Notes: generated by a model not told the origin, from the sequence alone. 64,000 bases of DNA from Patescibacteria group bacterium UBA5147 (GCA_002415345.1 DHXV01000003.1:24213-88212); one strand, 5' to 3'; positions 22,444-39,203 are shown, counted from the first letter of the stretch. Numbers and translations are program-made.

Positions 22444-23505
22444 ATGAAGAAACGTTTCCTTCTTTCCCTGTCATTTATCACGCTTATTGGGGCACAAGCT
22501 CTTATCCCCCTAGTTGCTGTGGCGGTCGATTCTAAACCATTAAATCTGATAACCTCGCCGCTACCGATTAACTTGGCGACCGATCCGGGCAAAACCGTGA
22601 GCACGGATCTGAGAATTAAACAGGCCGGCGGCGACACCCAGCGCCTCAAGGTCAGCCTCATGAAATTTGCCGCCTATGGCAGCGAAGGCAAGCCCAGGCT
22701 GGTTGACCGCGGTCCGGGAGACAATTATTTTGACTGGGTAAAATTTGATAAGACCCAGTTCGACGCCCCTTCCAACGTTTGGCAAACAGTGCATATGACG
22801 ATCAACGTTCCTAAGGATGCCGCTTTTGGTTACTACTACGCCGTGGTTTTTAGCCGTGAGGGGGATGACACGCGCCAGGCCGGTAACACCAACGCCATAA
22901 ACGGTGGCACGGCCGTTTTAGTGCTGTTAGATGCCAAGGTGCCCAACGCTGTCCGCTCGCTGCAGTTAAACGCTTTTACGTCCGAACATCGGCTCTACGA
23001 GTTTTTGCCGGCCAAGTTCAAGGTCAGCTTCCACAATAGCGGGAATGTCCATCTGGTCCCGACGGGCAATATTTTCATTAGCAAAGGCAAGACTCAGGTT
23101 GCCACACTATCGATAAATGCTGAACAGGGCAATGTTCTCCCTCAATCCAACCGGGTATACGATAGTAGCTGGGGTGACGGTTACCCTCATAGTGAACCGG
23201 TGGTTGAGGGCGGAAAAACCAAAATCGACGCCAAAAACCAGGAGGTGGACCATTTGGTGTGGAGTAACGGCGAAGGCAAGGACATCACACCCCATCTACG
23301 CATGGGCAAGTATACGGCCCATTTGTTTGCCGTTTACGACGACGGCCAGCGTGACGTACCGGTAGAGAGCGAAATTAGCTTTTGGGTGATCCCGTGGCGC
23401 TTCCTCTTGGCTCTGCTGGGTGTGGCACTACTCATCGGATTCGGCGTCTACGGCTTAATCCGCGGAACCTGGAGCGGGGCGCGTAAGATAGGGCGTAAGA
23501 AATAG
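22444..23505 (+). CDS. two-Ig-domain cell-surface protein with C-terminal TM anchor (CscA/DUF916-DUF3324-like architecture), paralog 1 of 3
   Basis: Signal peptide, beta-rich ectodomain with NSGNVHLVP and GNVLP motifs. C-terminus SFWVIPW + TM + GRKK basic tail. Confidence 0.6.
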   Translation: MKKRFLLSLSFITLIGAQALIPLVAVAVDSKPLNLITSPLPINLATDPGKTVSTDLRIKQAGGDTQRLKVSLMKFAAYGSEGKPRLVDRGPGDNYFDWVKFDKTQFDAPSNVWQTVHMTINVPKDAAFGYYYAVVFSREGDDTRQAGNTNAINGGTAVLVLLDAKVPNAVRSLQLNAFTSEHRLYEFLPAKFKVSFHNSGNVHLVPTGNIFISKGKTQVATLSINAEQGNVLPQSNRVYDSSWGDGYPHSEPVVEGGKTKIDAKNQEVDHLVWSNGEGKDITPHLRMGKYTAHLFAVYDDGQRDVPVESEISFWVIPWRFLLALLGVALLIGFGVYGLIRGTWSGARKIGRKK

Positions 23506-23507
23506 CG

Positions 23508-24446
23508 GTGGCGCTCAGACGCCTGCTAATGGGACTGCTTCTAGCCGGGGGCTTGAGCATTCTGATGGCCCTGCCGGTGCGGGCAGCGAGCCAGGGGTTC
23601 ATTATTTCGCCCGCATTTCAAAGCGTCATCCTGACGGCGGGCCAGACTCACACGCAGTATGCGCTGCAGCTGACCAATTCGACACCCACGGATCAGAATT
23701 TCCGCTTGTCCGCGGTGGATTTCGGCTCGCTTGATGAAAGCGGTGGCGTAGCCTTCCTAGGAATCCCAACCAGCGAACTTGAACATCGGTATGGCTTGGC
23801 AGCCTGGATGAAACTGGGCACCAACACGGTATTTGTAGCGGCGGCGAAGAGCGTCCAGGTAATCGTGACGATTGATAACCGTGCGTCGCTGGCTCCAGGG
23901 GGCCATTATGGGGCGATTTTAGCGACGGCCGTCACCGATACCGGTAAGGATACTGCGGGTGATCCAAGGGTTAACTTGCGCCAGGTATTATCATCCCTGG
24001 TGCTGTTAACCAAAGACGGGGGGATTAACGCTGAGCTCAAACTGACCAGCCAAAGCGTTAACCGGTCCGGGCTGCGGATGCCTAGTGCTACTTCCCAACG
24101 GTTCCAAAATACCGGCAATGTGCATTTGGTACCGCGGGGCACGGTGGTAATAAAAGATCCGGCCGGACGTGTCGTGTCACGCGGAGCGCTCAATGACGGA
24201 TCCGGCACTATCTTGCCCGAGAGTTTTCGCCGCTATGACACACCTCTAATGAGCATCGGCGCCCCCTGGCTACCCGGCCGGTATCAGGCCGTCACGACCT
24301 ATCGCTACGATGGTACCGAACAAACCAAGACGTTGGCGACTAGTTTCTGGTACGTAGGACAAGGAATTGTTTGGATTGCCGCGGTGGCGGTAGTTGGTTG
24401 TGTCGGTTGGCTGGGCTGGTTTTTTTGGCGGCGCAGGCGGAGCTAA
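23508..24446 (+). CDS. two-Ig-domain cell-surface protein with C-terminal TM anchor, paralog 2 of 3
   Basis: NTGNVHLVPRG, GTILPESFRRYD. C-terminus SFWYVGQG + TM + RRRRS. Confidence 0.6.
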   Translation: MALRRLLMGLLLAGGLSILMALPVRAASQGFIISPAFQSVILTAGQTHTQYALQLTNSTPTDQNFRLSAVDFGSLDESGGVAFLGIPTSELEHRYGLAAWMKLGTNTVFVAAAKSVQVIVTIDNRASLAPGGHYGAILATAVTDTGKDTAGDPRVNLRQVLSSLVLLTKDGGINAELKLTSQSVNRSGLRMPSATSQRFQNTGNVHLVPRGTVVIKDPAGRVVSRGALNDGSGTILPESFRRYDTPLMSIGAPWLPGRYQAVTTYRYDGTEQTKTLATSFWYVGQGIVWIAAVAVVGCVGWLGWFFWRRRRS

Positions 24447-24508
24447 CTGGAAGTTGGGTTTTTCCTTATGGTTAAGCCTTATAACTCTTGTGTTTAAGTA
24501 ACAAAACC

Positions 24509-24522
24509 CTTATGCTATAAGG
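24509..24522 (+). promoter_or_regulatory. CTTATGCT-type extended -10 promoter element (giant-protein operon)
   Basis: ccCTTATGCTATAAGgg. TGn + TATAAG, embedded in the inverted repeat CCCTTAT-gct-ATAAGGG. Confidence 0.4.
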
Positions 24523-24539
24523 GTAAATGTTGTTATGGA

Positions 24540-27500
24540 GTGTATCTGCCTAATCGTCTCTCTACGAGTCGAATGTTCAAGGTAGCGGCGGTAGCCATAC
24601 GTCGGCAAAAGACAAAGGCCCTTGCGGTAACTGGTCTTTTAGGCGTTGTGCTGATTACAGCGATAAGTTCGATGCCCGCTCCGGTCATTGCCGCCGTGGG
24701 CATCAACAAAACCATCAACTTTCAGGGGAAAGTCGTCAATACCAACGGCACCAACGTGGCCAACGGCAGCTATACTTTTGTCTTCAAACTCTACACTGTT
24801 GCCAGCGCGGGAAGTGCCAACTGGACCGAATCAAAGTCGCTGACCGTAACCGACGGAGTGTTCCAGACCAACCTCGGTGACGTAACCAGCCTCCCGGGAT
24901 CGGTCGACTTCAACAGCGATAATATCTACATGGGGATTACTTTTTCGACCGATGCTGAAATGAGCCCGCGCATCCAGTTCACGGCCGCGGCTTACGCCTT
25001 TAACTCTGACCGTCTGGGAGGGATTGCGGCGGCCGGTTTCGGTCAACTTAACCCGGGGAGTGCGCAGTCCGGTTCGCTCAATGTTACCGGTAGCATTCAG
25101 GCCGCTACTTCGCTGCAGGCGCCACTGGTGGATACCGCCACGGGTGTGGCCCTGAATATCGGCACGACCACTCAGACCAGCCTGACCCTTGGGCGTAGCG
25201 GTGCGGCCTTCGTTTTGCAGGGTTCATCAACCAGCACGGTTAAAGCCACCTCGGGCGCATTTACCACCACTTTGGGATTCATTACGCCAACGGCCAATAA
25301 TACTATCAGTCTGCCGAATGAGGGGGGTACGCTGTGCATACAGAATTCCGTTAGCTGCGGGTTCCTGACGGGCGCGACTAGCGATTACGTCCAGAACACG
25401 ACAACCCAGCAGGCGAGCAGTAATTTCAATATTTCCGGCATCGGTGTTGCTGCCGTCGCAATCCAAGCACCACTTCATGCTACCGCCGATTCGGCAGTCG
25501 CCGGGACGGCAAATTTGACTCTCCGTACGGGAAATGTGACAGCCGGAAATGCCCTGTCGTCTGGGAACGTTACGATTAAGTCGGGCGACGGAACGGGTAC
25601 CAGCACCAACACCAGCACCGGAAATGTCTCGGTCGATGCCGGAGTCAAGAGCGGCAGCGGATTCGCCGGCAATTTGAATATCGGGACGATCAACGCTCCG
25701 AACGTCACGATTGGCCACAACGGCGCAACTCCTGCAACAGTTTCAATCCAGGGTGCGGCGGCCACTTCGGCTCTCATTATGTCCAATGCCGCCGGTACCT
25801 TTAGCTCGACGATTGCCTTTGCCAACCCTACCGCAACAACCACTACGACTATTAGCAATGCGGGCGGCACGGTTTGTACGACCGTATCGAGCACGTGTTC
25901 TGGGACGTACCTGGTTTCGGGCAGTTATTTGGCAAAAAATGCCGCGGATACTTCCAACGCGGGCGTTGCCGGCTATTTGCTGGGTCTCACCAACACCTCT
26001 GGAAACGTGTTGCAGCTAACTGGTGCCGGCACCGGTTCGGCACTCAGCGTGAGCCAATCCGGCAATCCGGTGGCAGGCTCGGCGGTAATTTTTGCCAACA
26101 ATACCAACGGAACACCGTCAGGCAACCTGATTGATCTGCAAGCTGTGAGCGTCAGCAAGTTCAGCGTGACAAGCGCTGGTGCCGTCACTGCTGCCAGCAC
26201 CATCAATAGCCAGACGATTTCCGCCACCGCTCAGTTTACGGGTACTGTAACATCCGCTGGTGCAGTGACGGTTCAGGCTGGCGGGATTGGAGTGACCGGA
26301 AACTCATCAATCACAGGTACGCTGGGTGTGAGTTCTAACGTCACGGTTTCGGCCGGTAACCTCACGCTGTCAAACGGCACGCTTAGCGTTACCAGTGCGG
26401 CCCAGAACTCCATCAGTGGCGGCCTGCAATTAACCGGCGGCTTGGATAATCAGAGCGGCGGCATAACTAACACCGGTGCCGTGTCCGGCGCAACCACTGT
26501 GACGGCCAACGGCACCATTACCGGCGGCGGGGCGTTCAAATCGGCCGCTGCGGCCTCAACTTCCGCGGTCACCCTGATGTCCGGCAATGCCAGCGCCGGT
26601 ACATCGGGCGACGTTACCGTGGATTCTGGAACCGCCACTTCAACAACCGGCATCGTGAACATCGGGACCTCAAATGCATCGGCTATTAATGTCGGGAACT
26701 CCACGGCTCCCGTTACGGTGCAGGGGAGTGCAACTTCGAAATTGGTGTTTGGCAACAGCACGATTAGTGCTGTCAGCTCGGCTACGGCAGCCACCTATCA
26801 ATTTGCGGCCCCCTCTAGCGCTACAACCTATAACATTTGTACCAGTGACGCCAACTCCTGTACGGCGACCTTCCTCCGCAAGAACATCGTGGGTGAACAA
26901 TCATCGGCAGGCTTGGCCGCAGGGCAATACTTGTATCAGTTCGCCAACACCGGTGCCGCCACAGCAGACGTGTTGCAGCTAAATTCTGGCACCGGCACCG
27001 GTTCAGCCCTTAAGGTAACCGCTGCCGCCAACGCTGCCGCCGGAAACGCCCTGATTTTTGCGGAACTTACTAACGCCTCTATCGGCGGCAATCTGCTGGA
27101 CCTATGGAGCGGTGCCAGCGGCAGTGAGACTAGTAAGTTTGCCGTGGCCGCCAGCGGTGCCGTCACCAGTGGCACCATTAACGGCCAGACATTGGGCGCC
27201 ACTTCACAGCTCGCAATCGTCAACACCTCTGGCCTTCTGACGGCAAACTCCCTCACGGTTACAAACACTGCCAACTTAAACAGCGCTGTAAATGTTACCG
27301 GCCTACTAAGCGCCAATGGCGGGGCCAGCGTTACCGGGGGAATTGCCAATAATGCCGGCGGGATTACTGGGGCCGGGGCAGTGAGCGGAGTAACTGGCAT
27401 TACCTTCAGTTCGGCCGGGGCAATAGATTCCAGCGCCGCCACGGCTATAAACATTGGTACAACGACAGCATCCACCGTCAACATCGGGCGGACGGCGGGA

Positions 27501-28550
27501 TCGTTGTCATTGCAGGGCGCGGCCGCGAGCACTACGCTGGCCGGATCTAACGGTGGCTTTACGACAACGGTTGGTTTCGCCAACCCGATGGCGGCGGTAA
27601 TTTATCAATTCGCCACGGCTACCGCCGGTACTTACCAGCTGTGCTCGACCTACGCGTCAACCTGTGGGAGCACCTACGCGCCCTTTTACGGTGCCGGGTA
27701 TGTTCAGCTGGCACCAGGCTCGGCCCAAACTGATACTTCAACCAATACTGCGTTATTCATTAATAAAACTGCCGGAACTTCGTTGGTTAACTTGCAGGCT
27801 TCGGGGTCAACGGTATTCAATGTCCAGACTAACGGCACAGCCTATCTGGGAGGAGACTCAGCCTCGGCTGCCTTTATGGTGGACACGACCAGTTTCCGCG
27901 TCAAAGTAGGAACAGGCACGCCGAGCCAGTCCGGGGGCACCAACAACGCCACCACTGGGCTATATGTCAGTGGCACCACGGAGCTCGCAGGGTTGGTATT
28001 TATTGGAACCGCGGCCAACAACGCTTCCTTTAGTAATGCCACCAAGGAAGTAACATTCAACGGAACCGCGCGTCACGCCAGGACCTTACGCCTGATTGCC
28101 GAATACGCTGGCGCAGTGCTTGATACCGGTGGAGCCTCCACCGTCAATGGAATTATGACTGCCAGTTTTGATGCTGCGGCATCGCCGACCATGAGCTATT
28201 ACAAATGGACTACCAGCCAGGCAACCAACCAGAGCTATGACGTCGTAGTTACCGTACCGGTGCCTGAAGATTGGGGAGCCTGGAACGGCAACGCGACAAT
28301 CGTGAACTATGGTAGCGGAACCGGAGTATCGGAATCCGTCACCGTTTATGACACTGCCAATGCTATCGATACCAATATCAATACTTCAGCTCTGACGGTG
28401 GCAGGAGCGTGGTCGACCAGAACCCTCCCGGCATATGCAGGAACGTATACGGCTGGTGGGGTAATGAAGCTGCGCATCCATATGGTATCCGGTGCCGGCG
28501 GTGACGTAAGGTTGGGCACAATCTCCTTGCCTTATTTGAGCAAGTGGTAG
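24540..28550 (+). CDS. giant secreted Gly/Thr/Ala/Asn-rich repeat fibre protein (1336 aa)
   Basis: Signal peptide, likely from MFKVAAVAIRR at 24573. Internal tandem modules of about 330 aa (e.g. LQLTGAGTGSALSVSQSGNPVAGSAVIFANNTNG vs LQLNSGTGTGSALKVTAAANAAAGNALIFAELTNA). Four repeats carry a Cys pair (GT[LV]C...S.C). Distinct C-terminal globular domain ending LPYLSKW. Confidence 0.7.
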   Translation: MYLPNRLSTSRMFKVAAVAIRRQKTKALAVTGLLGVVLITAISSMPAPVIAAVGINKTINFQGKVVNTNGTNVANGSYTFVFKLYTVASAGSANWTESKSLTVTDGVFQTNLGDVTSLPGSVDFNSDNIYMGITFSTDAEMSPRIQFTAAAYAFNSDRLGGIAAAGFGQLNPGSAQSGSLNVTGSIQAATSLQAPLVDTATGVALNIGTTTQTSLTLGRSGAAFVLQGSSTSTVKATSGAFTTTLGFITPTANNTISLPNEGGTLCIQNSVSCGFLTGATSDYVQNTTTQQASSNFNISGIGVAAVAIQAPLHATADSAVAGTANLTLRTGNVTAGNALSSGNVTIKSGDGTGTSTNTSTGNVSVDAGVKSGSGFAGNLNIGTINAPNVTIGHNGATPATVSIQGAAATSALIMSNAAGTFSSTIAFANPTATTTTTISNAGGTVCTTVSSTCSGTYLVSGSYLAKNAADTSNAGVAGYLLGLTNTSGNVLQLTGAGTGSALSVSQSGNPVAGSAVIFANNTNGTPSGNLIDLQAVSVSKFSVTSAGAVTAASTINSQTISATAQFTGTVTSAGAVTVQAGGIGVTGNSSITGTLGVSSNVTVSAGNLTLSNGTLSVTSAAQNSISGGLQLTGGLDNQSGGITNTGAVSGATTVTANGTITGGGAFKSAAAASTSAVTLMSGNASAGTSGDVTVDSGTATSTTGIVNIGTSNASAINVGNSTAPVTVQGSATSKLVFGNSTISAVSSATAATYQFAAPSSATTYNICTSDANSCTATFLRKNIVGEQSSAGLAAGQYLYQFANTGAATADVLQLNSGTGTGSALKVTAAANAAAGNALIFAELTNASIGGNLLDLWSGASGSETSKFAVAASGAVTSGTINGQTLGATSQLAIVNTSGLLTANSLTVTNTANLNSAVNVTGLLSANGGASVTGGIANNAGGITGAGAVSGVTGITFSSAGAIDSSAATAINIGTTTASTVNIGRTAGSLSLQGAAASTTLAGSNGGFTTTVGFANPMAAVIYQFATATAGTYQLCSTYASTCGSTYAPFYGAGYVQLAPGSAQTDTSTNTALFINKTAGTSLVNLQASGSTVFNVQTNGTAYLGGDSASAAFMVDTTSFRVKVGTGTPSQSGGTNNATTGLYVSGTTELAGLVFIGTAANNASFSNATKEVTFNGTARHARTLRLIAEYAGAVLDTGGASTVNGIMTASFDAAASPTMSYYKWTTSQATNQSYDVVVTVPVPEDWGAWNGNATIVNYGSGTGVSESVTVYDTANAIDTNINTSALTVAGAWSTRTLPAYAGTYTAGGVMKLRIHMVSGAGGDVRLGTISLPYLSKW

Positions 28551-28555
28551 GGTTG

Positions 28556-31500
28556 ATGCCAAAATTTTCAACGGTTAAGCTTAGGACTATGCCTGGGCTT
28601 CTTCGAATTATCTATCGCCAAAAAAAACCGGTTCATCTGGCAACTCTTGGACTCATTCTTGGCGCAATTATCGCTCCCATTATCAGCCAACTGGTCATTA
28701 ACCAACAATATCGGCTCAGTTCCGACATCACCGCCTTGACCGCCCCGCGCACCCCCAAACTTGAGGCAAAAATGATGCGCGATGAATCTAACAAGCAGAC
28801 GTCTTTCAATGCCTCGGCGAATACGGCGAGCAAAGACAAGCTCCAGTCAAAGATTGGTGCCGGCACATCCGACCAGCTTTATTCGGTAGTGTTCCCTGAC
28901 GACAGCCGCAAAGGCATAACCATCACCGACAACGTCAATCAAGTTGATGTGGTGATGACCCCACGGTTTAAAACCAGTGAGGCACGGTTATCGGATGGCA
29001 GAGTAATATATCCGACCGCAATCAGTTCGGCCAGGCTGGTTTATACCCCCGCGTCCGACGGGCTCAAAGAAGATATCGTCATCGATTCCAAGCCGGGCCA
29101 AGACACTTTGTCTTTTGCCTATGATCTGAAACTTCCGGATTATTTAGAAGCCAGGATGATGCCCGACGGCTCTCTGGGAGTGTATTCCGGGGCACCGGAA
29201 CTGTTCGGGGCGATGTCATACGGCAGTGATAATGATCGTGCCACCATCACTAAGGCGCGCCAGAACGCCGCCAAGAATTATTTGATGTTCGCCATTCCTG
29301 CCCCGGTCGTAAAACAGACGGGTAAGCCGTCTCGGGCTGTGGCGTCCCGTTTCGAATTCAAAGCCGGTGTCCTCACTGTAATAACAACCGGATTGGGTCA
29401 GGCTTCATATCCGTTAACTATCGACCCGACATTCTTTATTTCCAGCAGCAGCGACTTTGACGCCGGTACCGGTGAGGAGGACCTCGACTACAGCGTAGCC
29501 GGGCAAATCGGCCGGGCGGCCCTTACGGGCGGGGCGGTTAACAGCTGGACCGCAACTAATACGTTACCGAACGCCCAGTGGGGGGTATCATCAGCCGGGT
29601 ACAACAATTACTTGTACACGACCGGGTCGTACCAGGGATCAATGTACACCTCCCATGCGCCGGTCAATTCCAACGGCTCACTTGGCACGTGGGTATCGGA
29701 CGGGGTCACTTATACTCCCGGCAAAATCGGCTCTCGCATGGTTGCCTATAATGGCTATTTATACACGCTGGGTGGCGAAGATAGCTCAACGCACACGCAG
29801 TATGCGACCGTGTTGTACTCGAAAATCGATGCGATAACGGGCGCTGCCGGTACCTGGAACAGCACTACCGGTTTCTCCGGGGCGCGGGCGTTCTTTGGTG
29901 CGGTGGTTTATAAGGGTTACATCTACCTGATGGGCGGTGGCCAGGGCGCTAATGAAACGGCCGCCAGCGACGTGCAGTATGCCAAAATCAATGGTGACGG
30001 AACTTTGGGTACCTGGGCGACCACTACGGCCTTGTCGAGCGCGCGCGAAGGGTTGGCTGCCACTGCGCAGAACGGCTGGCTTTATGTGACCGGTGGCCGG
30101 AGCGGTACGTCCGCATCCACTAACGCAAAGACTACGGACGTGTATCGGGCTGCTCAAAATGCCAACGGAACACTCGGGAGCTGGGCACAGACCACCTCAT
30201 TTAATACGGCGCGACGGGACCATCAGATATCCATTAACAATAACTATATGTATATTACGGGCGGTTGTACCGCCACGGGGGCAGATCCCTGCACCACGCT
30301 GGCTGCTGACACACAATATGCCCCAGTTTATGCTGATGGTACCGTAGGAACCTGGACAGCCAGCGCCAACATCACGACGGCGAGGGATCAGGCCGGAATG
30401 GCCGCCTACCGGGGAAATCTGTATGTAGTGGGCGGCTGCTCTGCCGAAACGGCCGGTCCGGCTTGCGGTACCAGCGATGCTAATGCTTTGGGCAGCGTCC
30501 AATACTCCTCCCTGGCGGCTGCTGGCAACATGGCATCAGCAGCGGCATCCGGAAGCACCTTTACGACGGCCCGCCACTCTCAGCTGACAACGGTTTACGA
30601 CGGGTATATGTACGTCGCCGGTGGTTGCGCGGTAAACACTTGCTCTGCCGTTCTCAGTGATACCTATTACGCTTCCGTAGCGGCTGATGGAACAATTGGC
30701 ACTTGGACCGCGACCGGAACCTTGCCCTCGACCGCTAACGACCAGCCTGGTCGGATGGCCTCATGCATGGTCGGGTATAACGGGCGGCTATACATCGTCG
30801 GGGGAGGGCAACTGCACAATGGTAACAACAACCTGGAAACGGTAAGCGACACCGTGGTTGGGGTAATTGGAGCGAGTGGCGCAGTAAGCAGCTGGACAAC
30901 TGGTACGGGAGGATCGCTGCCGGTCAACTCCTGGTATCATTCCTGCGAAACCTACAACGGCTACATCTATGTTATCGGTGGCACGACCTCGACTACCGCG
31001 ACCTACCGCACTACTATATATTACGCCACACTCAACGCTGATGGTTCCTTCGGGACTTTTGCCACCACCACCAATACCTTTGCCACGGGACGTAACAGCC
31101 AGGCCTCCGCGGTTTGGCATGGCTATCTCTACATTGGCGGAGGGTATACGGGCAGTGCGTATTTGAACGATATCCAATATGCGAAAATGGGTAATGCCGG
31201 CGACATTACGAGTACTTTTGCAACCGCCGGAAACACGTTTACGCAAACCCGCAGATTCCTGACGATGGTTGCTACCAACGCCGTGTTATATGTATACGGA
31301 GGCTATACCGGGTCGGCGGTTAGGAGCGATGTACAGTACTCTACCCTGGATCCGACGACAGGTGCACCTGGCACTTTCACAACATCAGGATCGACGCTAT
31401 CGACTGCCCGCTGGGGGACAGGCACGTCATACCGTGGTGTCTTATATCTGGTGGGTGGATGCACGACCGCCAACTGCACCGGTTTCTCAAACGTAACTGA

Positions 31501-33000: not shown

Positions 33001-33918
33001 CTATTGGGTTACGAAGTAGTCGAAAGCGAGCACTGAGCCGGCCGGAGGGGGAGAATCGGTACGTATCTGGAATCCGGAGGAAGTGCGGTTTACGTAGACA
33101 GGAGTTGCGGCGCTTGCCCCGGTAAGCGGCGACAGCAGAACATGGACGCCACCGGTGAAGCCCGCGCGGAAGGTAACCGAGGCCAAGATTCCGGCTGCCG
33201 TGCCGCTGCCGGTGTTAACGTTAACGGTACCCGCAGTGTCGTTACCGCTGATGTTAACCGTTCCGCCGCCGCCAATGGCGCTTCCGGCCGTGATTCCCGG
33301 GGTTGCGCCTTGGGTGCGCAGATGTCCGATGGTCAGAGGCCCGGCAATGGAAATAGTTTGCGTGGAAATGGATTGCGTGTTCAGCGTGTTGACGCTGGCT
33401 GCTCCGCTCACATTGAGGCCGCCATTCACTGACAGTAACTGAGAAACTGTCAGTCCTTTAAGCAGGGTGGTTGTTCCTGATACCGTTAGATTGGACCCCA
33501 CGCTCAGTCCGGAAAGTGCGGTGGTGCCGCTGATATTAAGCTCACTCAAGGTTACTGGCCCGTTGGCATTGAAATGGCCGCCCACACTAAGGTCGCCGGC
33601 GACGTCCAATTTCCCGCGGAACAGGGAATTGGCGCCAATATTAAGGGTCTGGTTGGAGTTACCCAGGCTGGTGCTGACGTCGGTAAGCTTTTGGATATCT
33701 TCCTGACTCAAGGTCTGGACCTGGGTTTTAGCGGGAACAGCCGTTTTCTTGGTACTCAGCGAATAAAAGTATCCCACCACAGCCCCGACGAATAACACGC
33801 AGATGAGCAGCGCGACAACGGTTGAAATATTGTTGGCCCGCCTGATCATGCGCGACCATGAACGCCCCTCCTTACGGGGCGGCGGGTTTGTGGGGGTTGG
33901 CAGTGTGGTAGGGGGCAT
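33001..33918 (-). CDS. membrane-anchored beta-helical repeat protein (paralog 2 of 2)
   Basis: 305 aa. Basic N-terminus, TM, LNISGTTALSGLSVGSNLTVSGTTTLL beta-helix-like repeats. C-terminus VLAFDYFVTQ matching 16180-17286. Confidence 0.55.
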   Translation of the reverse strand: MPPTTLPTPTNPPPRKEGRSWSRMIRRANNISTVVALLICVLFVGAVVGYFYSLSTKKTAVPAKTQVQTLSQEDIQKLTDVSTSLGNSNQTLNIGANSLFRGKLDVAGDLSVGGHFNANGPVTLSELNISGTTALSGLSVGSNLTVSGTTTLLKGLTVSQLLSVNGGLNVSGAASVNTLNTQSISTQTISIAGPLTIGHLRTQGATPGITAGSAIGGGGTVNISGNDTAGTVNVNTGSGTAAGILASVTFRAGFTGGVHVLLSPLTGASAATPVYVNRTSSGFQIRTDSPPPAGSVLAFDYFVTQ

Positions 33919-34035: not shown

Positions 34036-34800
34036 ATGAGACGATTGCGAATTGTAGGAGTATACGCCCTGGCCGGCATAATTGGCTGGCCCACCGCGGC
34101 CCTGGCCGTGACCCCGGGCGACCCGTCATTCAGGTCGACTAACTACAGTATCAACGAGAGCTATATTGGACCGGGCGGGGACAGCCAGGGCATCTCCACC
34201 AGCTATAAGACTCAAGGCTCAACCTTGGGAGATACCGGCGTAGGTAATTCCGGCTCGGCCAACTTTCAGGCCAACAGCGGTTATGACACCACCAACGATC
34301 CGCGGTTGAGTTTTACCGTTAACACGGCTTCCGCCGATTTAGGCGTTCTGTCCACGTCTGTGGCGTCTACGGCCACGGCTACCTTCAGTGTCCTCAATTA
34401 CACGTCGTACGGGTACGTCGTTTCTATGGTGGGAAGTCCGCCTAGTAATAGCGGGCATCCGCTGTCTGCCCTTGCAACCGATACTGCCAGTGCTAACGGG
34501 GTGGAACAATTTGGAATTAACCTGGTTGCCAACACGAGCCCGGTGTCGGTAGGAGCTAACCCGGTTCAGGACGTCAGCGGTTCCACCACATTTGGTTTTG
34601 GGCGCGCCGGTACCGGCGCCGGCACGGCCTATGCTCAAACTAATTTGTATCGATACGTTCCCGGCGAAACCATCGCCTCGGCACCAAAATCCTCTGGCAT
34701 AACCAACTACACGATGTCGTTTATGGCCAACATGAGTACCACGACTCCAGGTGGCAAATACTCGGGTCCCATGACGCTCATTTGTACCGGTACATACTAA
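34036..34800 (+). CDS. secreted surface-subunit family protein, subfamily A
   Basis: Signal peptide. STNYSINESYIGPGG...SANFQANSG N-terminus (paralog of 18889-19953), FGINLVANTSP. C-terminus YSGPMTLICTGTY. Confidence 0.6.
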   Translation: MRRLRIVGVYALAGIIGWPTAALAVTPGDPSFRSTNYSINESYIGPGGDSQGISTSYKTQGSTLGDTGVGNSGSANFQANSGYDTTNDPRLSFTVNTASADLGVLSTSVASTATATFSVLNYTSYGYVVSMVGSPPSNSGHPLSALATDTASANGVEQFGINLVANTSPVSVGANPVQDVSGSTTFGFGRAGTGAGTAYAQTNLYRYVPGETIASAPKSSGITNYTMSFMANMSTTTPGGKYSGPMTLICTGTY

Positions 34801-34893: not shown

Positions 34894-36012
34894 ATGAAAA
34901 ACGTATCAATTAAATTAAAGGACTTGCGTCGGAAACTGGCCGTATGGGCTTCCGTTGTTGCTATGGCATCGATGGCATTGCTTCCAGGCGCTGCTAGTGC
35001 AGCCGGCCAATTGACTGCTCGTAAGACCGTGCTTACTAGTTCGGCAGCTGCCGCAGTGACAACTTACGTCACCACATTCACTATGGGAACCGCCGGCCAA
35101 ACGCTGGGTTCCTTAAAAGTTGAACTATGCGACTCGCCGCTTCAAACTGCCTCGTGTGTCAACACTGGTAGCTCCTCCGGCGTTAGCATGTCTGCTGCCG
35201 CTTTAACTGGCGTTACCGGTGCAGTTGGAACGGGTACCTGGACTATAGGTACCAGAACCGCTAATTCCGCCCTGGTTAACAAGTCCACAAACGATGTTCA
35301 GACCGCTAACCCAACCCTGGTTGTAACCTTGACCACCATTACGAACCCAACGGCGATCAACTCGCCATTCTATCTCCGCGTTTCAACCTACACAGCTACA
35401 GCCGGTGGTGGAACTAATACCGACTTTGGTGCCATGGCACTGTCTACTACCCAATCATTAACTGTTTCAGCCAACGTTCAGGAAAGTCTGACCTTCTGCA
35501 CTGGCACCAACGTTGCTTCAACGAGCTGTGGTGATATCACTGGCAGCACCGTTAGCGTCGGCACTGGTACCGACAACATCCTATCGACATCACCATCGGG
35601 TGGAGTATCCGTCATGTACGCGGCTACCAACGGCACCAGTGGGTACTCCGTTACCTACTTTGCCGCGAACTTCTCGTCTTCTAGCGACACCATTGCGTCC
35701 AACGGTGCTGTCAAAGCCGCCTTACCGGCAGTCGGAACCGCCGCCTTCGGTATCAACCTGGCTGCCAACGCGACGCCGTCAATTACCGGTTCTTCCGCAG
35801 TCTCTGGTGCCGGTTCAGGCGCCGTGGATGCCAACTACAACACCGCAAACCAATTCGCTTTTGTACCCTCGGCAGCATCGGCCGTGGCTTCAGCGGCCGG
35901 GCCTACCCTCATAAACAAGTACGTCGTGTCATACGCCGGTCAAGCTGGCAGCACGACCAAGCCTGGCGCCTTCTCGACAGTCTTCACCTACGTCGCTACC
36001 GCCACTTTCTAA
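34894..36012 (+). CDS. secreted surface-subunit family protein, subfamily C
   Basis: Signal peptide, conserved Cys pair (ELCDSPLQTASC; LTFCTGT), FGINLAANATP. C-terminus FSTVFTYVATATF. Confidence 0.6.
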   Translation: MKNVSIKLKDLRRKLAVWASVVAMASMALLPGAASAAGQLTARKTVLTSSAAAAVTTYVTTFTMGTAGQTLGSLKVELCDSPLQTASCVNTGSSSGVSMSAAALTGVTGAVGTGTWTIGTRTANSALVNKSTNDVQTANPTLVVTLTTITNPTAINSPFYLRVSTYTATAGGGTNTDFGAMALSTTQSLTVSANVQESLTFCTGTNVASTSCGDITGSTVSVGTGTDNILSTSPSGGVSVMYAATNGTSGYSVTYFAANFSSSSDTIASNGAVKAALPAVGTAAFGINLAANATPSITGSSAVSGAGSGAVDANYNTANQFAFVPSAASAVASAAGPTLINKYVVSYAGQAGSTTKPGAFSTVFTYVATATF

Positions 36013-36058
36013 GACTCTCTCTCGTTATTCTAGTAACCATTAACGACTGAAGCCAATC

Positions 36059-37096
36059 GTGAAAATAAACCGACTCATTTTAAAAGCCATTCTTGTCGCA
36101 ACTGCGGTATCCATACTACCGCTTGCGGCCATGGCAACAGAGGTAACCGATCGGAGTATTACGTTAGGTTCCTCTGCCCCGGGAGCTATAACGACCCATA
36201 CTTTCGGCCTCACCGTACCGAGCACTGCAAATGTTGGATCCATTGAGTTCAAATATTGCACCACACCCCTCGGTGCCTGCACCACCCCCGCGGGCCTCGT
36301 TACCACCGTCGCGTCGCTAATAAACCAGACGGGTGCTACAGGCTTCAGTGTAGTCAACACTAATAACGGCACGCCGTACATTTCACGCGGTTCCGCCAGT
36401 ATTCCGGCGACAACGCAAGTCACATATCAGTTCTCCGGTGTAACCAACCCGTCAGGGGTGAACGTCGAATATTGGGTCCGGGTTAACACCTACGCGAGCA
36501 TCGACACCACCGGTTCCCCTATAGATGGCGGAGTCGTCGACTTTGTTACCACAAGTGATATCACCGTTTCAGGAATCATGCCTGAATCACTGATCTTCTG
36601 CGTCGGAACCAGTGGCACCAGTTGTGCCAATATTACCGGTAGTGCCGTGAGTCTTGGAATTTTCAGTCCGGCTCTTACCAACACGGGTACCAGTGTGATG
36701 AGTGCCAGTACTAACGCCTCATTCGGATACACTATCGCGCTGGCTGGAAGTACTCTCAGTTCCGGGGCCAATACTATTACATCCATGGGGCAGCAGTCTC
36801 AGAACGGTACGGCCTCGGCGTCGGCCGTTGGGACAAGCCAGTTCGGAACGAATCTTAGAGCTAACTCAACACCACCTGTCGGAGCGAACGTGAGTGGTTT
36901 GGGCACAGGAGTAGTCGTAGGCGGGTATAATGTCGTCGATAATTTCCGCTACTTCTCAGGTGATACTTTGGCTAACGCGGGTGGCCCGGTCAACGATAAT
37001 CTCTTCACGAACTCATACATCGTCAACGTGAGCCCCGATCAGGCGGCCGGAGTCTATACCGCTACCATGACCTACATTTGTACGGCGACCTTCTAA
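36059..37096 (+). CDS. secreted surface-subunit family protein, subfamily C
   Basis: GTG start. Signal peptide, FKYCTTPLGACTTPAGLVTT, LIFCVGT, FGTNLRANSTP. C-terminus YTATMTYICTATF. Confidence 0.6.
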   Translation: MKINRLILKAILVATAVSILPLAAMATEVTDRSITLGSSAPGAITTHTFGLTVPSTANVGSIEFKYCTTPLGACTTPAGLVTTVASLINQTGATGFSVVNTNNGTPYISRGSASIPATTQVTYQFSGVTNPSGVNVEYWVRVNTYASIDTTGSPIDGGVVDFVTTSDITVSGIMPESLIFCVGTSGTSCANITGSAVSLGIFSPALTNTGTSVMSASTNASFGYTIALAGSTLSSGANTITSMGQQSQNGTASASAVGTSQFGTNLRANSTPPVGANVSGLGTGVVVGGYNVVDNFRYFSGDTLANAGGPVNDNLFTNSYIVNVSPDQAAGVYTATMTYICTATF

Positions 37097-38109
37097 TGAC
37101 GACGCGCCGCAGTACGGCCATAGCTGTAATCGTGGCTTTGTTGCCGTTTACGGCGAATGCTGCCGCCCTCATCCCCCGGTCGGTACAGCTGGGTTCAAGC
37201 CAAGCCGGCGTAACAACCACTAATACGGTGGCTGTCATGACGGCGACCACATCGAACATTGGGTCCATTGGTTTGAAATACTGTACGACCGCCGCCGGCG
37301 CGTGTACTACTCCCGCCGGCCTTGTAACCACTAGCGCAAGCCTCACCGGACAGATCGGGATAGCCGGCTTTAGTATTAATAACGTGGTCAACGGGGCGCC
37401 GTTTATTAGCAATGGGGCAGTACCGAATGTGAACGTTGGCACGTTGGTTACGCTTAATTTGAGTAGCATCGTAAATCCGTCTAGCGCAAATACAACGTTT
37501 TTTATTCGGGTCACTACATATATCGGTACCGATGGCGCAACCAGTGTAGTCGATGCTGGAACGGTGGCGGTAAGTACCGCACAGGAAGTCCAACTCACAG
37601 GGGTCACGCCGGAAATTCTAATCTTCTGCGTTGGCATCACTATAACCACTGATTGCAGTTCCATGACCGGATCAAATATCGACTTTGGTGATTTTTCGCC
37701 ACAATCTACCCGCACCGGTTCCAGCGTGATGCAGGCCTCAACAAATGCGACCGGGGGGTATAGCGTTACGGTGAACGGAACAACGCTGGCGTCGGGGGTG
37801 AACACAATCCCGGCGCTGGCCGCTCAAACTATATCAACCGTGGGAACGGGGCAGTTTGGTTTGAATCTGCGAGCTAACTTCACACCGGCTGTTGGGGCTG
37901 ACCCAACCGGAGCCGGTACCGGCACGTTTACAGGCACTTATGGCGCTCAGAACCAATACCGATTCAATACGGGTGATTCGGTAGCTACAGCCGCAATGCC
38001 AACCAATGCTAATACGTATACTTCCAGTTATATTGTGAATATCGGTGGGATACAGGCGGCTGGTGTTTATACGTCAACTATGACATATATTTGTACCGCA
38101 AATTTTTAG
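37096..38109 (+). CDS. secreted surface-subunit family protein, subfamily C
   Basis: ATG overlaps upstream stop (TAATG). LKYCTTAAGACTTPAGLVTT, LIFCVGIT, FGLNLRANFTP. C-terminus YTSTMTYICTANF. Confidence 0.6.
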   Translation: MTTRRSTAIAVIVALLPFTANAAALIPRSVQLGSSQAGVTTTNTVAVMTATTSNIGSIGLKYCTTAAGACTTPAGLVTTSASLTGQIGIAGFSINNVVNGAPFISNGAVPNVNVGTLVTLNLSSIVNPSSANTTFFIRVTTYIGTDGATSVVDAGTVAVSTAQEVQLTGVTPEILIFCVGITITTDCSSMTGSNIDFGDFSPQSTRTGSSVMQASTNATGGYSVTVNGTTLASGVNTIPALAAQTISTVGTGQFGLNLRANFTPAVGADPTGAGTGTFTGTYGAQNQYRFNTGDSVATAAMPTNANTYTSSYIVNIGGIQAAGVYTSTMTYICTANF

Positions 38110-38178
38110 AGTCTTCGGGACATTTTAACATTGTGCAATCCTCTAAAAAAACCAAGACGCAGGTTGTATACTAACGCC

Positions 38179-38191
38179 CTTATGCTATTAT
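38179..38191 (+). promoter_or_regulatory. CTTATGCT-type extended -10 element immediately upstream of 38199
   Basis: ccCTTATGCTATTATtac. ATG follows 8 nt after the hexamer. Confidence 0.4.
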
Positions 38192-38198
38192 TACTTTA

Positions 38199-39203
38199 AT
38201 GCAAAAGTGGTTTACTAGAGGAATAACGGTTGTCGCGGCGTTAGTCGTGGTTTCGTCGTCGCTGGCTCTTGCTGCTACGCCTGTTCCGACCGCCACGCCA
38301 AAGGCCACCAATTCGGGTCAGGGTCTTGAGATATCGCCCCCGGTCATTGAGCTGAGCGCCGATCCAGGCCAGACTGTCACCGCTACGATTCGAGTTCGAG
38401 ACGTATCCTCGGGTCCGCTCATCGCCAAAGGTCGGGCCGATGACTTTGGGGCTGGCACCGCCGAAGACGGACAGCCAAAATTGTTATTGGATGAGCAGGG
38501 CGCAACGCGCTACTCTCTCAAATACTGGATACCGAGCGTTCCTGATCTTAATCTAGCACCTCAGGAGCTTAAAACTGCGGTAGTAAACATTATCATCCCC
38601 AAGAACGCCGAGCCGGGGGGGCACTTTGGTGTTATTCGGTTCACCGCAGTTCCGCCGGATTTGGCAGGCACTGGAGTATCTCTTTCGGCAAGTGTCGGTA
38701 CGTTGGTCCTACTTAAGATTTCGGGTGCAGTGAAAGACGATCTGAGTCTAGCTGAATTAAGCACAGGTGCCGTAGATGCCAAGGGCGCCTTCAAGTCCAA
38801 ATCCCGCTTCTTCGAAACGGGCCCGGTGGGATTCCTGGTGCGCCTGCGTAATAACGGTACCGTCCATGAAAAAGCTACTGGCGGTATCACTGTTACAGAT
38901 ACCTTCGGCAATAACGTGGCAACCGTCGCCGTGAATGACAAGGGTGGCAACGTCCTCCCAGACAGTATCAGGCGTTTTGAGCAAACGCTCGCCAAAAAGA
39001 ACCTGTTCGGCCATTACAACGCCAAGCTTAGCCTGACATACCTGGGCGGACAGAAGAAGATTGATGCCACGACCAGTTTTTGGGTGATTCCATGGGTATT
39101 GATTCTGGATGTAATCGTAGTACTGGTGATACTGTTCTTTGCCCTAAGGTTCTCGCTCAAAAAATATAACCAGCACATCATTGCTCAGGCCCGTCGTAGA
39201 TAA
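38199..39203 (+). CDS. two-Ig-domain cell-surface protein with C-terminal TM anchor, paralog 3 of 3
   Basis: NNGTVHEKATG, GNVLPDSIRRFE. C-terminus SFWVIPW + TM + ARRR. Start only 8 nt downstream of a -10-like TATTAT, so possibly a leaderless mRNA. Confidence 0.6.
   Translation: MQKWFTRGITVVAALVVVSSSLALAATPVPTATPKATNSGQGLEISPPVIELSADPGQTVTATIRVRDVSSGPLIAKGRADDFGAGTAEDGQPKLLLDEQGATRYSLKYWIPSVPDLNLAPQELKTAVVNIIIPKNAEPGGHFGVIRFTAVPPDLAGTGVSLSASVGTLVLLKISGAVKDDLSLAELSTGAVDAKGAFKSKSRFFETGPVGFLVRLRNNGTVHEKATGGITVTDTFGNNVATVAVNDKGGNVLPDSIRRFEQTLAKKNLFGHYNAKLSLTYLGGQKKIDATTSFWVIPWVLILDVIVVLVILFFALRFSLKKYNQHIIAQARRR

What the first reader, a model, noticed from the sequence alone, without database searches (positions are those of the whole stretch)
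22444..39203. Three paralogous Ig-fold proteins with a tripartite C-terminus (SFW[VY] motif, TM helix, basic tail)
22444-23505, 23508-24446 and 38199-39203 share N[ST]GNVHLVP / NNGTVHEKATG and GN[VI]LP[DQE]S.RR[FY] motifs. Their C-termini are SFWVIPW-TM-GRKK, SFWYVGQG-TM-RRRRS and SFWVIPW-TM-ARRR. Motif+TM+basic cluster is the layout of processed sorting signals (LPXTG, PEP-CTERM, GlyGly-CTERM), yet no cognate sortase-like enzyme is encoded nearby. Overall size and layout match CscA-type DUF916/DUF3324 proteins of WxL clusters. This may extend that system to a CPR-like lineage, with different partner proteins.
Basis: partly seen in the sequence, partly recalled or inferred. Interest (0 to 1): 0.7.

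Follow-up and report, generated by a model that had tools for sequence, protein, structure and literature searches.

The report
Membrane-anchored pilus chaperones of CPR bacteria
The three paralogous genes most likely encode the membrane-tethered helper proteins (PamC/PamD type) that build the recently described "Pam" pili of ultrasmall CPR bacteria, and they prove to be distant relatives of the WxL-interacting proteins of Gram-positive bacteria.

Summary
There are three paralogs (353, 312 and 334 aa). Each has a signal peptide, two Ig-like beta-sandwich domains, a conserved aromatic motif, one TM helix and a basic tail.

The genes lie in two pam-type pilus clusters. NCBIfam recognises PamT, Pam pilins and PamR beside them. 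By position, size and fold they match the PamC/PamD "FimC/PapD-like chaperones with a C-terminal TM helix" of a 2026 preprint on Ca. Mycosynbacter amalyticus. No direct sequence comparison with PamC/PamD was possible.

- The best PDB structural matches are E. faecium WxLIP.
- Ectodomain-only profile-profile comparison with 76 bona fide WxLIPs gives E = 3e-12; reversed controls give E ≥ 0.2.
- Domain 1 against DUF916 gives E = 1e-13.

The preprint does not mention this link.

The motif is really [ST]-F-W-[VI]-x-P-[WY]-[KR], and the Ser is variable. It ends the last beta-strand directly before the TM helix. In 687 kb of CPR DNA it occurs only in this family. It is therefore most likely an anchor junction, not a portable sorting signal.

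Verdict: new members of a very recently described kind, plus a new evolutionary link. The chaperone function is inferred, not shown.

The parts
22444..23505 (+). Paralog p1: membrane-anchored two-Ig-domain chaperone-like protein of cluster I (PamC-like by context). 353 aa, 38.8 kDa, pI 9.4. It carries a 38-aa insertion in domain 2.
   Evidence: ORF. BLASTP to p3 E=1e-22. Family HMM 383.7 bits. 794 homologs. Conserved position before p2 in L181-L183.
23508..24446 (+). Paralog p2: second chaperone-like protein of cluster I. 312 aa, 33.5 kDa, pI 10.1. It lacks the ~20-residue hinge hairpin, as reported for PamC. Its junction motif is SFWYVGQG.
   Evidence: ORF. BLASTP to p3 E=6e-19. Alignment A1. 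712 homologs. Motif [FVI]WY[AV]G in the family.
38199..39203 (+). Paralog p3: positional equivalent of PamD, lying between the last Pam pilin and PamR. 334 aa, 35.5 kDa, pI 9.7.
   Evidence: AF2 model pLDDT 90.5. Foldseek top hits are WxLIP and CU chaperones. Gene order pilin(s)-chaperone-PamR in about 57 of 80 metagenome loci. The M. amalyticus locus order PamR-PamD-PamE-...-PamT and its protein sizes match.
23377..23397 (+). p1 junction motif SFWVIPW (aa 312-318). It is followed by the TM segment RFLLALLGVALLIGFGVYGLI and a basic tail ending GRKK.
   Evidence: Family consensus FWVIPWR with F, W, P and W at 100%.
24342..24365 (+). p2 junction motif SFWYVGQG (aa 279-286). It is followed by the TM segment IVWIAAVAVVGCVGWLGWFFW and RRRRS.
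39075..39095 (+). p3 junction motif SFWVIPW (aa 293-299). F294 and W295 end the last beta-strand (286-296), and P298-W299 start the TM helix (299-333). The cytoplasmic tail KKYNQHIIAQARRR is conserved in orthologs.
34036..34800 (+). PamT tip pilin (254 aa, 25.8 kDa).
   Evidence: NCBIfam NF058579, 262.5 bits, above the cutoff of 240.
34894..38109 (+). Three Pam pilins (34894-36012, 36059-37096, 37078-38109). Each has a C-terminal Pam pilin domain ending in ...T-A-[TN]-F at the very C-terminus.
   Evidence: NF058581 at E=2e-22, 6.5e-44 and 1.5e-49. All 108 homologous domains end exactly at the protein C-terminus with F or Y.
39227..40180 (+). PamR, an RbmA-like pilus tether with a C-terminal TM helix (317 aa, 32.9 kDa).
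   Evidence: NF058578, 295.5 bits (cutoff 300), plus a PKD domain.
17376..18317 (+). Second PamR paralog, at the head of cluster I.
   Evidence: NF058578, 285.5 bits.
18326..22419 (+). Cluster I putative subunits: a conserved 191-aa unknown (18326-18901), a 354-aa protein with a PamT-like N-terminus (18889-19953), and two acidic pilin-like proteins ending GAGNF (20053-21213, 21337-22419). These are probably PamB-type.
   Evidence: Weak NF058579 hit. hhalign to the Pam pilin C domain is only E=7e-4 to 5e-3. The order is conserved in L181-L183. The assignment is inferred.
24540..32965 (+). Two giant secreted proteins downstream of p1/p2: a 1336-aa T/S/G/A-rich protein and a 1473-aa Kelch beta-propeller protein. 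Both are conserved downstream in relatives.
   Evidence: Pfam Kelch hits. Synteny. Their role in the system is unknown.

Best explanation
The three genes encode PamC/PamD-type assembly chaperones of the CPR "Pam" pilus system.

Proposed mechanism:
- Each protein is exported by Sec and its signal peptide is removed.
- It stays in the cytoplasmic membrane as a type I protein. Two Ig-like domains face outward, one TM helix spans the membrane, and a short basic tail faces inward.
- At the membrane surface it captures newly translocated pilin subunits. The C-terminal Ig-like domain of each pilin lacks a strand, and the chaperone completes it by lending a beta-strand (donor-strand complementation).
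- The pilin is then handed to the growing fibre by donor-strand exchange. There is no outer-membrane usher.

Division of labour:
- p3 (PamD-like) serves the PamT/PamA/PamE-type pilins of cluster II.
- p1 and p2 (PamC-like) serve the divergent acidic pilins of cluster I.

The [ST]FW[VI]xP[WY][KR] motif is the end of the last beta-strand plus an interfacial aromatic/proline junction. It holds domain 2 rigidly against the membrane. It is not a cleaved sorting signal.

The family is a divergent CPR branch of the WxLIP (DUF916-DUF3324-TMH) superfamily of Firmicutes.

Shown here: paralogy, fold, membrane-anchor layout, operon context and WxLIP homology.

Inferred: chaperone activity, the identity of the donated strand, the pairing of each chaperone with its pilins, and retention of the anchor.
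For: Context:
- Neighbours match NCBIfam PamT, Pam pilin C-domain and PamR models.
- The order pilin(s)-chaperone-PamR recurs in about 57 of 80 metagenome loci.
- The cluster I order is conserved in 3 of 3 other genomes examined.

Literature:
- The preprint 10.64898/2026.03.03.709456 describes PamC/PamD as FimC/PapD-like chaperones with a C-terminal TM helix. Its AlphaFold models show chaperone strands inserted in the pilin CTD groove, and the pairs PamT:PamD, PamD:PamA and PamB:PamC.
- The M. amalyticus locus order and sizes (PamR 32.8, PamD 37.4, PamE 38.6, PamT 25.6 kDa) match cluster II here (32.9, 35.5, 34-37, 25.8 kDa).

Fold:
- The AF2 model (pLDDT 90.5) has two beta-sandwiches plus a TM helix.
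- Foldseek hits WxLIP 9i1y/9i25 at E=2e-10 to 6e-10, then CU chaperones CfaA, CsuC, YadV, DraB, Caf1M and SafB at E=1e-9 to 1e-6.

WxLIP homology:
-.
- WxLIP is predicted to complete the incomplete WxL sandwich with a strand (PMC10599100), and a WxLIP-WxL complex has been solved (9i25).

Anchor rather than sorting tag:
- The motif lies in a strand with pLDDT 97-98.
- It is confined to this family.
- The p2 family uses a different junction.
- The p3 family has the conserved cytoplasmic tail rrYNxhIIaqARrr.
- No sorting-domain HMM hits.

Other:
- All pilin domains end in a C-terminal aromatic residue.
- The chaperones are basic (pI 9.4-10.1) and most pilins are acidic (pI 4.5-5.7).
Against: - No experiment, here or in the preprint, shows chaperone activity. 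The preprint's assignment rests on AlphaFold and Foldseek.
- I could not compare sequences directly with M. amalyticus PamC/PamD, so orthology rests on context, size and fold.
- Domain 2 homology to DUF3324 is weak on its own (E=5e-4).
- Cluster I 'pilins' match the Pam pilin domain only weakly.
- The near-invariance of FWVIPW is stronger than a mere anchor junction needs, so an added role such as recognition or processing is not excluded.
- The WxLIP authors interpret their protein as a stable anchor or adhesin rather than a transient chaperone.
Confidence: 0.75

Rival explanations
1. Stable membrane tether or adhesin, the WxLIP-style reading. The proteins do not act transiently. They stay bound to a pilin or pilus base, or bind cell-wall or host ligands, and so hold surface proteins on the cell. 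Domain 1 would bind the subunit and domain 2 would point outward.
For: - Homology to WxLIP. The WxLIP authors propose anchoring of WxL and host binding (PMC10599100).
- A stable WxLIP-WxL complex was crystallised (9i25).
- PamD is abundant in the M. amalyticus proteome (rank 30).
Against: - The system already has a dedicated predicted tether, PamR, and the window holds two copies.
- Pam filaments are homopolymeric stretches of PamA/PamB without chaperone density.
- The ectodomain sits directly on the membrane with no linker, which is poorly placed for reaching a host.
- There are one or two chaperones for 3-4 pilin genes per cluster.
Confidence: 0.15
2. Processed C-terminal sorting signal. FW[VI]xP[WY] plus a TM helix plus a basic cluster is recognised by an intramembrane or membrane-associated protease. 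Candidates are a CPBP-type enzyme like the myxosortase, MrtS or MrtJ families, or an unknown enzyme. This enzyme would release the Ig domains or attach them covalently to the envelope.
For: - The tripartite layout is real and the motif is conserved very strongly: F 98% and P 98% across representatives that are at most 50% identical.
- Motifs directly abutting the TM helix are typical of PEP-CTERM and PGF-CTERM signals (own knowledge).
- A CPBP/Rce1-like protease is encoded at 53393-54121, with sub-cutoff hits to MrtS and MrtJ.
Against: - The tag is found only in this one protein family in 687 kb of CPR DNA, whereas true sorting tags are shared by unrelated proteins.
- No sorting-domain NCBIfam model hits.
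- No sortase, exosortase or rhombosortase was found among the scanned window ORFs.
- The CPBP gene lies in a housekeeping row (uppS-rseP-CPBP-proS) and scores far below every equivalog cutoff.
- The p3 tail is conserved in sequence, not just in charge.
- The p2 family has a different junction.
- WxLIP homologs keep a TM helix without the motif.
Confidence: 0.07
3. Generic Ig-fold surface proteins that merely neighbour the pilus genes, with no role in pilus biogenesis.
For: - No Pfam or NCBIfam family is assigned.
Against: - Synteny with pilins and PamR is tight and conserved across loci that share only 35-68% identity.
- The homology to WxLIP is specific, and WxLIP is itself always clustered with its strand-deficient partners.
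Confidence: 0.03

Closest known systems
PamC / PamD of the Ca. Mycosynbacter amalyticus pam operon (Troman et al., bioRxiv 10.64898/2026.03.03.709456)
   Same: - Signal peptide, two beta-sandwich domains and a C-terminal TM helix.
- Encoded between Pam pilins and PamR (p3 = PamD position) or beside PamB-type pilins (p1/p2 = PamC position).
- Sizes match.
- A hinge hairpin is present in p3 and p1 and absent in p2, which mirrors the reported PamD/PamC difference.
- The lineage is Saccharimonadia.
   Different: - A different organism: an uncultured soil or permafrost metagenome contig.
- This window has three chaperones, not two, and two separate clusters, each with its own PamR and a divergently transcribed fibre-like gene.
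- Direct sequence identity to PamC/PamD could not be measured.
WxLIP / CscA (DUF916 PF06030 + DUF3324 PF11797 + TMH) of WxL (csc) clusters in Lactobacillales, Listeria and Bacillus; PDB 9i1y, 9i25
   Same: - Same domain order, size (about 310-370 aa), signal peptide, C-terminal TM helix and basic tail, and often a basic pI.
- Best structural match in the PDB.
- Significant profile-profile and HMM similarity, strongest in domain 1, the partner-binding domain.
- The partner is a beta-sandwich lacking a strand.
   Different: - Below Pfam thresholds.
- Lacks the NQIDKxxxYFDLK signature (an 11-residue gap).
- No 20-25-residue linker between domain 2 and the TM helix; the FWVIPW junction takes its place.
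- Partners are polymerising Pam pilins with no significant WxL similarity (E 0.003-0.01).
- Host lineage is CPR.
Periplasmic chaperones of chaperone-usher pili (PapD, FimC, CfaA, CsuC, Caf1M, SafB)
   Same: - Two Ig-like domains.
- Proposed donor-strand complementation of pilins that end in a conserved C-terminal aromatic residue.
   Different: - No sequence-level similarity (PapD_N and PapD_C are not among the family's Pfam hits).
- Anchored in the membrane rather than soluble.
- No usher and no outer membrane.
C-terminal sorting signals (LPXTG/sortase, PEP-CTERM/exosortase, GlyGly-CTERM/rhombosortase, MYXO-/Synerg-/JDVT-CTERM with CPBP proteases)
   Same: Motif, then TM helix, then basic cluster at the extreme C-terminus.
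   Different: - The motif is part of a folded strand.
- It is restricted to one protein family.
- No cognate enzyme is linked to it.
- The cytoplasmic tail is conserved in one subfamily.

Membership tests
PamC/PamD Pam-pilus chaperones (CPR) | N-terminal Sec signal peptide | tested here: met
   All three have a basic n-region, a hydrophobic core and an A-x-A-like site. AF2 predicts helix 2-20 followed by a disordered linker. SignalP was not available.
PamC/PamD Pam-pilus chaperones (CPR) | Two tandem beta-sandwich domains with a FimC/PapD-like fold | tested here: met
PamC/PamD Pam-pilus chaperones (CPR) | C-terminal transmembrane helix | tested here: met
   Helix 299-333. 149/149 diverse relatives have a hydrophobic 17-mer after the motif.
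PamC/PamD Pam-pilus chaperones (CPR) | Encoded in a pam operon with PamT, Pam pilins and PamR | tested here: met
   NCBIfam NF058579, NF058581 and NF058578 hits on the neighbours. Conserved synteny.
PamC/PamD Pam-pilus chaperones (CPR) | Sequence similarity to WP_260763277.1 / WP_260763284.1 | not testable with these tools
   The reference sequences are not retrievable here. Only the locus order and protein sizes could be compared.
PamC/PamD Pam-pilus chaperones (CPR) | Forms a donor-strand complex with a pilin CTD | not testable with these tools
   No multimer prediction is offered. The pilin monomer model failed (pLDDT 51).
WxLIP (DUF916+DUF3324+TMH) | PF06030 and PF11797 above the gathering score | tested here: not met
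   No hit at E<=1 for p1-p3. 47/123 relatives give sub-threshold PF06030 hits, best E=1.5e-4. Control WxLIPs score 100-180 bits.
WxLIP (DUF916+DUF3324+TMH) | Homology detectable by profile methods over both domains, in order | tested here: met
   hhalign on ectodomains gives 96.5-97.6% and E=1e-9 to 3e-12, against reversed E>=0.2. D1 gives E=1.2e-13; D2 gives only E=5e-4. The HMM hits 76/76 WxLIPs, up to 46.8 bits, against 3.9 bits for shuffled sequences.
WxLIP (DUF916+DUF3324+TMH) | Conserved N-terminal NQIDKxxxYFDLK motif | tested here: not met
   The alignment shows an 11-residue gap. Pam proteins have GLxISPPxxEL instead.
WxLIP (DUF916+DUF3324+TMH) | Clustered with at least two WxL-domain proteins | tested here: not met
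   The neighbours have no WxL Pfam hit. Pam pilin C domain against WxL gives prob 4-10% and E=0.003-0.01, and HMM scores are at shuffled level.
WxLIP (DUF916+DUF3324+TMH) | 3D similarity to solved WxLIP | tested here: met
Chaperone-usher periplasmic chaperones (PapD-like) | PapD_N / PapD_C sequence families | tested here: not met
   Absent for p1-p3. Not among the 25 most frequent families in 123 relatives.
Chaperone-usher periplasmic chaperones (PapD-like) | Soluble periplasmic protein working with an outer-membrane usher | tested here: not met
   A TM anchor is present. No usher family was found among the cluster genes scanned.
C-terminal protein-sorting signals | Tag shared by several unrelated protein families of the same genome | tested here: not met
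   86/115 family ORFs against 0/1357 other ORFs in 687 kb of window and CPR loci. Whole genomes were not sampled.
C-terminal protein-sorting signals | Cognate sorting enzyme encoded | tested here: inconclusive
   No sortase, exosortase or rhombosortase was found in the scanned window ORFs. One CPBP protease lies at 53393-54121, with sub-cutoff MrtS/MrtJ hits, in a housekeeping context.
C-terminal protein-sorting signals | Proteolytic removal of the TM segment | not testable with these tools
   This needs proteomics or biochemistry.

The most novel reading that the evidence does not exclude
The CPR Pam pilus and the Firmicute WxL/Csc surface clusters may be two branches of one ancient, usher-less assembly pathway for single-membrane cells. 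In that pathway a membrane-anchored two-Ig-domain chaperone (PamC/D = WxLIP) completes strand-deficient subunits.

On this reading the Pam pilin C-domain and the WxL domain would also be homologous. Hints are that the motifs G-[WY]-x-[LIV] and Y-x-T-x-[LM]-T-[WY]-x-[LC] align collinearly. WxL proteins might then be assembled or displayed by donor-strand exchange rather than by simple peptidoglycan binding.
Probability: 0.3. Interest if true: 0.75.

Novelty: new member of a known kind. Interest (0 to 1): 0.5.

Why it matters
Pam pili are thought to be how parasitic or episymbiotic CPR bacteria first contact their hosts, and the system was described only in 2026. This window shows three things:
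- The machinery is widespread in environmental Saccharimonadia.
- It can be duplicated into two differentiated clusters.
- It can carry three chaperones.

The more useful result is the link to WxLIP. It ties an uncharacterised CPR family (more than 11,000 cluster representatives at E<=1e-3) to the long-enigmatic CscA/DUF916 proteins of lactobacilli, enterococci and Listeria. For both it suggests one testable mechanism: donor-strand complementation by a membrane-anchored chaperone. It also shows that current Pfam and NCBIfam models miss the whole CPR branch.

Tried and rejected
- Pfam and NCBIfam scans of the three proteins found no family.
- A profile search of PDB sequences found nothing at E<=1.
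- The afdb50 fold library was unavailable.
The 4-sequence window-only alignment gave pLDDT 51.
- Pam pilin C-domain against WxL domain, by hhalign and by reciprocal HMMs, was not significant.
- Cluster I pilin-like proteins against the Pam pilin domain gave only weak similarity.
- The pilin sequence against the PDB gave no solved relative.
- I could not identify M. amalyticus sequences among the hits. Cluster look-ups returned no names, and the window's own contig is a JGI soil or permafrost metagenome.
- No paper describing PDB 9i1y/9i25 was found in the library.
- The sorting-signal idea was considered and set aside, for the reasons given under the rival explanations.

Full report
OBSERVATION. 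The three ORFs are present as described. They are 22444-23505 (p1, 353 aa), 23508-24446 (p2, 312 aa, GTG start 2 nt after the p1 stop) and 38199-39203 (p3, 334 aa), all on the + strand. BLASTP shows clear paralogy: p1/p3 E=1e-22, p2/p3 E=6e-19 and p1/p2 E=2e-9, at 26-29% identity. A family HMM finds exactly these three genes in the window. The quoted internal motifs and the three C-termini are present at the coordinates given under "parts".

Each paralog has its own large ortholog set in Saccharimonadia metagenomes, with 794, 712 and 612 hits at E<=1e-3. The same long contigs often carry all three.

THE MOTIF. In about 120 orthologs of p1 and of p3 the core is F-W-V-I-P-W-[KR], with F, W, P and W at 99-100%. 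The preceding Ser is variable (S/T/G/D). The p2 family has [FVI]-W-Y-[AV]-G, then a TM segment, then WWLWRRRR. In 150 representatives that are at most 50% identical to one another, F is 98%, W 83%, [VI] 95%, P 98% and [WY] 77%. All 149 with enough sequence carry a TM segment after the motif. The aromatic motif is therefore conserved, but "SFW" is better written [ST]FW[VI]xP[WY][KR].

STRUCTURE. AlphaFold2 on a 123-sequence alignment of all three subfamilies gives a confident model of p3 (pLDDT 90.5, pTM 0.78). It shows a signal helix at 2-20, a low-confidence linker, beta-sandwich domain 1 (43-174), domain 2 (182-296) and one continuous helix at 299-333. F294 and W295 are the last residues of the final strand (286-296). 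P298 and W299 open the TM helix. There is no linker between the fold and the membrane.

CONTEXT. NCBIfam recognises the neighbours as a CPR "Pam" pilus system:
- 34036-34800 is PamT (262 bits, cutoff 240).
- 34894-38109 holds three proteins with the Pam pilin C-domain (E=2e-22 to 1.5e-49).
- 39227-40180 is PamR (295.5 bits, cutoff 300).
- A second PamR paralog lies at 17376-18317.

The window thus has two clusters:
- Cluster I: fibre-like gene (-), PamR2, a 191-aa unknown, a PamT-like 354-aa protein, two acidic pilin-like proteins ending GAGNF, p1, p2, then two giant proteins.
- Cluster II: fibre-like gene (-), PamT, three pilins, p3, PamR.

In 80 metagenome loci fetched with the chaperone profile, the order pilin(s)-chaperone-PamR on one strand recurs in about 57. 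The rest are cut by contig ends. Many loci have a further chaperone upstream. Cluster I is collinear in three other genomes, always after ileS-ftsW-rplU.

WHAT IS KNOWN. A 2026 preprint (10.64898/2026.03.03.709456) solved the PamA and PamB filaments of Ca. Mycosynbacter amalyticus by cryo-EM. The pilins have Ig-like folds and assemble by donor-strand exchange. From AlphaFold and Foldseek the authors named two operon proteins PamC and PamD as FimC/PapD-like chaperones that, unlike the classical ones, keep a C-terminal TM helix. They proposed assembly without any trans-envelope machine and predicted the complexes PamT:PamD, PamD:PamA and PamB:PamC.

The M. amalyticus locus order is PamR-PamD-PamE-...-PamT, with sizes 32.8, 37.4, 38.6 and 25.6 kDa. 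This matches cluster II here, at 32.9, 35.5, 34-37 and 25.8 kDa. The reported difference, that PamD has an extra hinge hairpin, matches p3 and p1 against p2. I therefore assign p3 as PamD-like and p1/p2 as PamC-like. This rests on context, size and fold.

THE WxLIP LINK. None of the three proteins hits PF06030 or PF11797 at E<=1. Deeper tests are positive.

(i) Foldseek against the PDB ranks E. faecium WxLIP first: 9i1y_A at E=1.8e-10 and 9i25_C, bound to a long WxL protein, at E=5.8e-10. Chaperone-usher chaperones CfaA, CsuC, YadV, DraB, Caf1M and SafB follow.

(ii) I fetched 96 Firmicute loci with the back-translated WxLIP signature. From them I extracted 76 full-length proteins. All 8 that I tested hit PF06030 and PF11797 at 80-180 bits.

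(iii) hhalign of the Pam chaperone alignments against this WxLIP alignment gave the following:

| Comparison | Probability | E-value |
|---|---|---|
| Full length | 98.8-99.3% | 6e-17 to 1e-20 |
| Ectodomain only (signal peptide and TM removed), ~218 collinear columns | 96.5-97.6% | 1e-9 to 3.2e-12 |
| Reversed controls | - | 0.2-0.35 |
| Domain 1 vs DUF916 | 98.1% | 1.2e-13 |
| Domain 2 vs DUF3324 | 31.6% | 5e-4 |
| Cross-domain and reversed controls | - | ≥0.08 |

(iv) The ectodomain HMM hits 76/76 WxLIP ectodomains, best 46.8 bits and median 31.8, against a maximum of 3.9 bits for shuffled sequences.

(v) Among 123 family members the most frequent sub-threshold Pfam hit is PF06030 (47 members, best E=1.5e-4). 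PapD families do not appear among the 25 most frequent families shown.

The family is therefore a divergent CPR branch of the WxLIP superfamily. WxLIP is itself predicted to insert a strand into a gap in the WxL beta-sandwich (PMC10599100). The Pam preprint does not mention WxL or DUF916.

Differences from WxLIP:
- The NQIDKxxxYFDLK signature is missing.
- There is no linker before the TM helix.
- The partners are Pam pilins. Their C-domain shows no significant similarity to WxL domains: hhalign E=0.003-0.01, prob 4-10%, and HMM scores at shuffled level.

One hint is recorded only as a hint. The weak alignment is collinear and pairs GW.L with the invariant GY.[IV], and Y.ttLTW.L with Y.t.lTY..T.

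SORTING SIGNAL OR ANCHOR? Evidence against a processed tag:
- The motif belongs to a confidently folded strand.
- In 687 kb of window and CPR loci it occurs in 86 of 115 family ORFs and in 0 of 1357 other ORFs.
- The p2 subfamily uses a different junction.
- The p3 subfamily has a sequence-conserved cytoplasmic tail, rrYNxhIIaqARrr.
- No sorting-domain model hits.
- No sortase, exosortase or rhombosortase is among the window genes scanned.

What keeps the idea alive:
- The motif is conserved very strongly.
- Motifs abutting the TM helix are typical of PEP-CTERM and PGF-CTERM signals.
- A CPBP/Rce1-like protease at 53393-54121 gives weak, sub-cutoff hits to the MrtS, MrtJ and myxosortase families. 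It sits in a housekeeping row next to rseP.
- Whole genomes were not searched.

I rate processing at about 0.07.

MECHANISM (inferred). The proteins are exported by Sec and stay in the membrane as type I proteins. Domain 1 is the DUF916 equivalent and holds the most conserved loop residues, F83, E89, G91, P93 and W110. The strand-poor pilin C-domain is completed by a chaperone strand, and the pilin is then passed to the fibre by donor-strand exchange.

Three observations fit such complexes but do not prove them:
- The pilin domains always end at the protein C-terminus with F or Y.
- The chaperones carry an invariant Arg (R258).
- The chaperones are basic (pI 9.4-10.1) while most pilins are acidic.

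Which strand is donated, and which chaperone serves which pilin, is not established.

VERDICT. These are new members of a kind described in 2026, so the novelty is modest. The chaperone-WxLIP homology is, as far as the searched literature shows, a new and testable connection. The family is very large (11,655 cluster representatives at E<=1e-3) and is invisible to current Pfam and NCBIfam models.

Noticed in passing
16180-17286 (-) and 33001-33918 (-): Two paralogous secreted or anchored proteins (368 and 305 aa) with C-termini ...FDYWVIQ and ...FDYFVTQ and a weak bactofilin-like beta-helix hit. Each is transcribed divergently from the head of one pam cluster. A 368-386-aa minus-strand gene occupies the equivalent position in L181-L183. 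This may be the 'tail fibre-like' neighbour mentioned in the preprint.
   Followed up: partly
38199-39203, residues 316-334 (about 39144-39200): The cytoplasmic tail of the PamD-like subfamily is conserved in sequence (rrYNxhIIaqARrr; Y, N, I, I, A and R at 80% or more in 119 orthologs). This is much more than a positive-inside signal needs. It suggests a cytoplasmic partner or an interfacial helix. Unexplained.
   Followed up: partly
17376-18317 and 39227-40180: Both PamR paralogs begin with an unusual conserved His/Arg-rich stretch (HHxSGRLRxHxxTSY) before the first hydrophobic segment. This is atypical for a plain signal peptide.
   Followed up: no
24540-28550 and 28544-32965: Two giant genes overlap by 7 nt, directly downstream of p1/p2. 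One is a 1336-aa T/S/G/A-rich repetitive protein with no family hit. The other is a 1473-aa multi-Kelch beta-propeller protein. In relatives the first is 2538-4651 aa. They could be adhesins or cargo of cluster I.
   Followed up: partly
41997-47032: Just after parA/parB, downstream of cluster II, lie two tandem signal peptidase I genes (41997-42626 and 42646-43395, both -), an LCP (LytR-CpsA-Psr) protein (43493-45082) and an HtrA protease (45878-47032). Together they form an envelope-biogenesis neighbourhood.
   Followed up: partly
53393-54121: A CPBP/Rce1-like intramembrane protease next to rseP. It gives sub-cutoff NCBIfam hits to the MrtS, MrtJ and myxosortase sorting proteases. It is the only sorting-enzyme-like gene in the window.
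   Followed up: partly
18326-18901: A 191-aa protein conserved at this position in cluster I of three other genomes (220-250 aa; C-terminus ...S[VL][RK]W). It has no family hit and no similarity to the pilin or chaperone profiles.
   Followed up: partly
Literature (preprint Table S1): The preprint's proteome table lists pamC as QHN42421.1, at 119 kDa and next to pilM. This conflicts with its text, which describes a FimC-like protein of about 35 kDa (WP_260763277.1). QHN43268.1 (36.5 kDa), two loci from PamR, looks like the more plausible PamC.
   Followed up: no
L001-L096 (Firmicute loci): WxL proteins end ...Y-x-T-x-L-T-W-x-L-x-D-x-P and Pam pilins end ...Y-x-T-x-[LM]-T-Y-x-x-T-A-x-F. The resemblance is not statistically significant.
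   Followed up: yes
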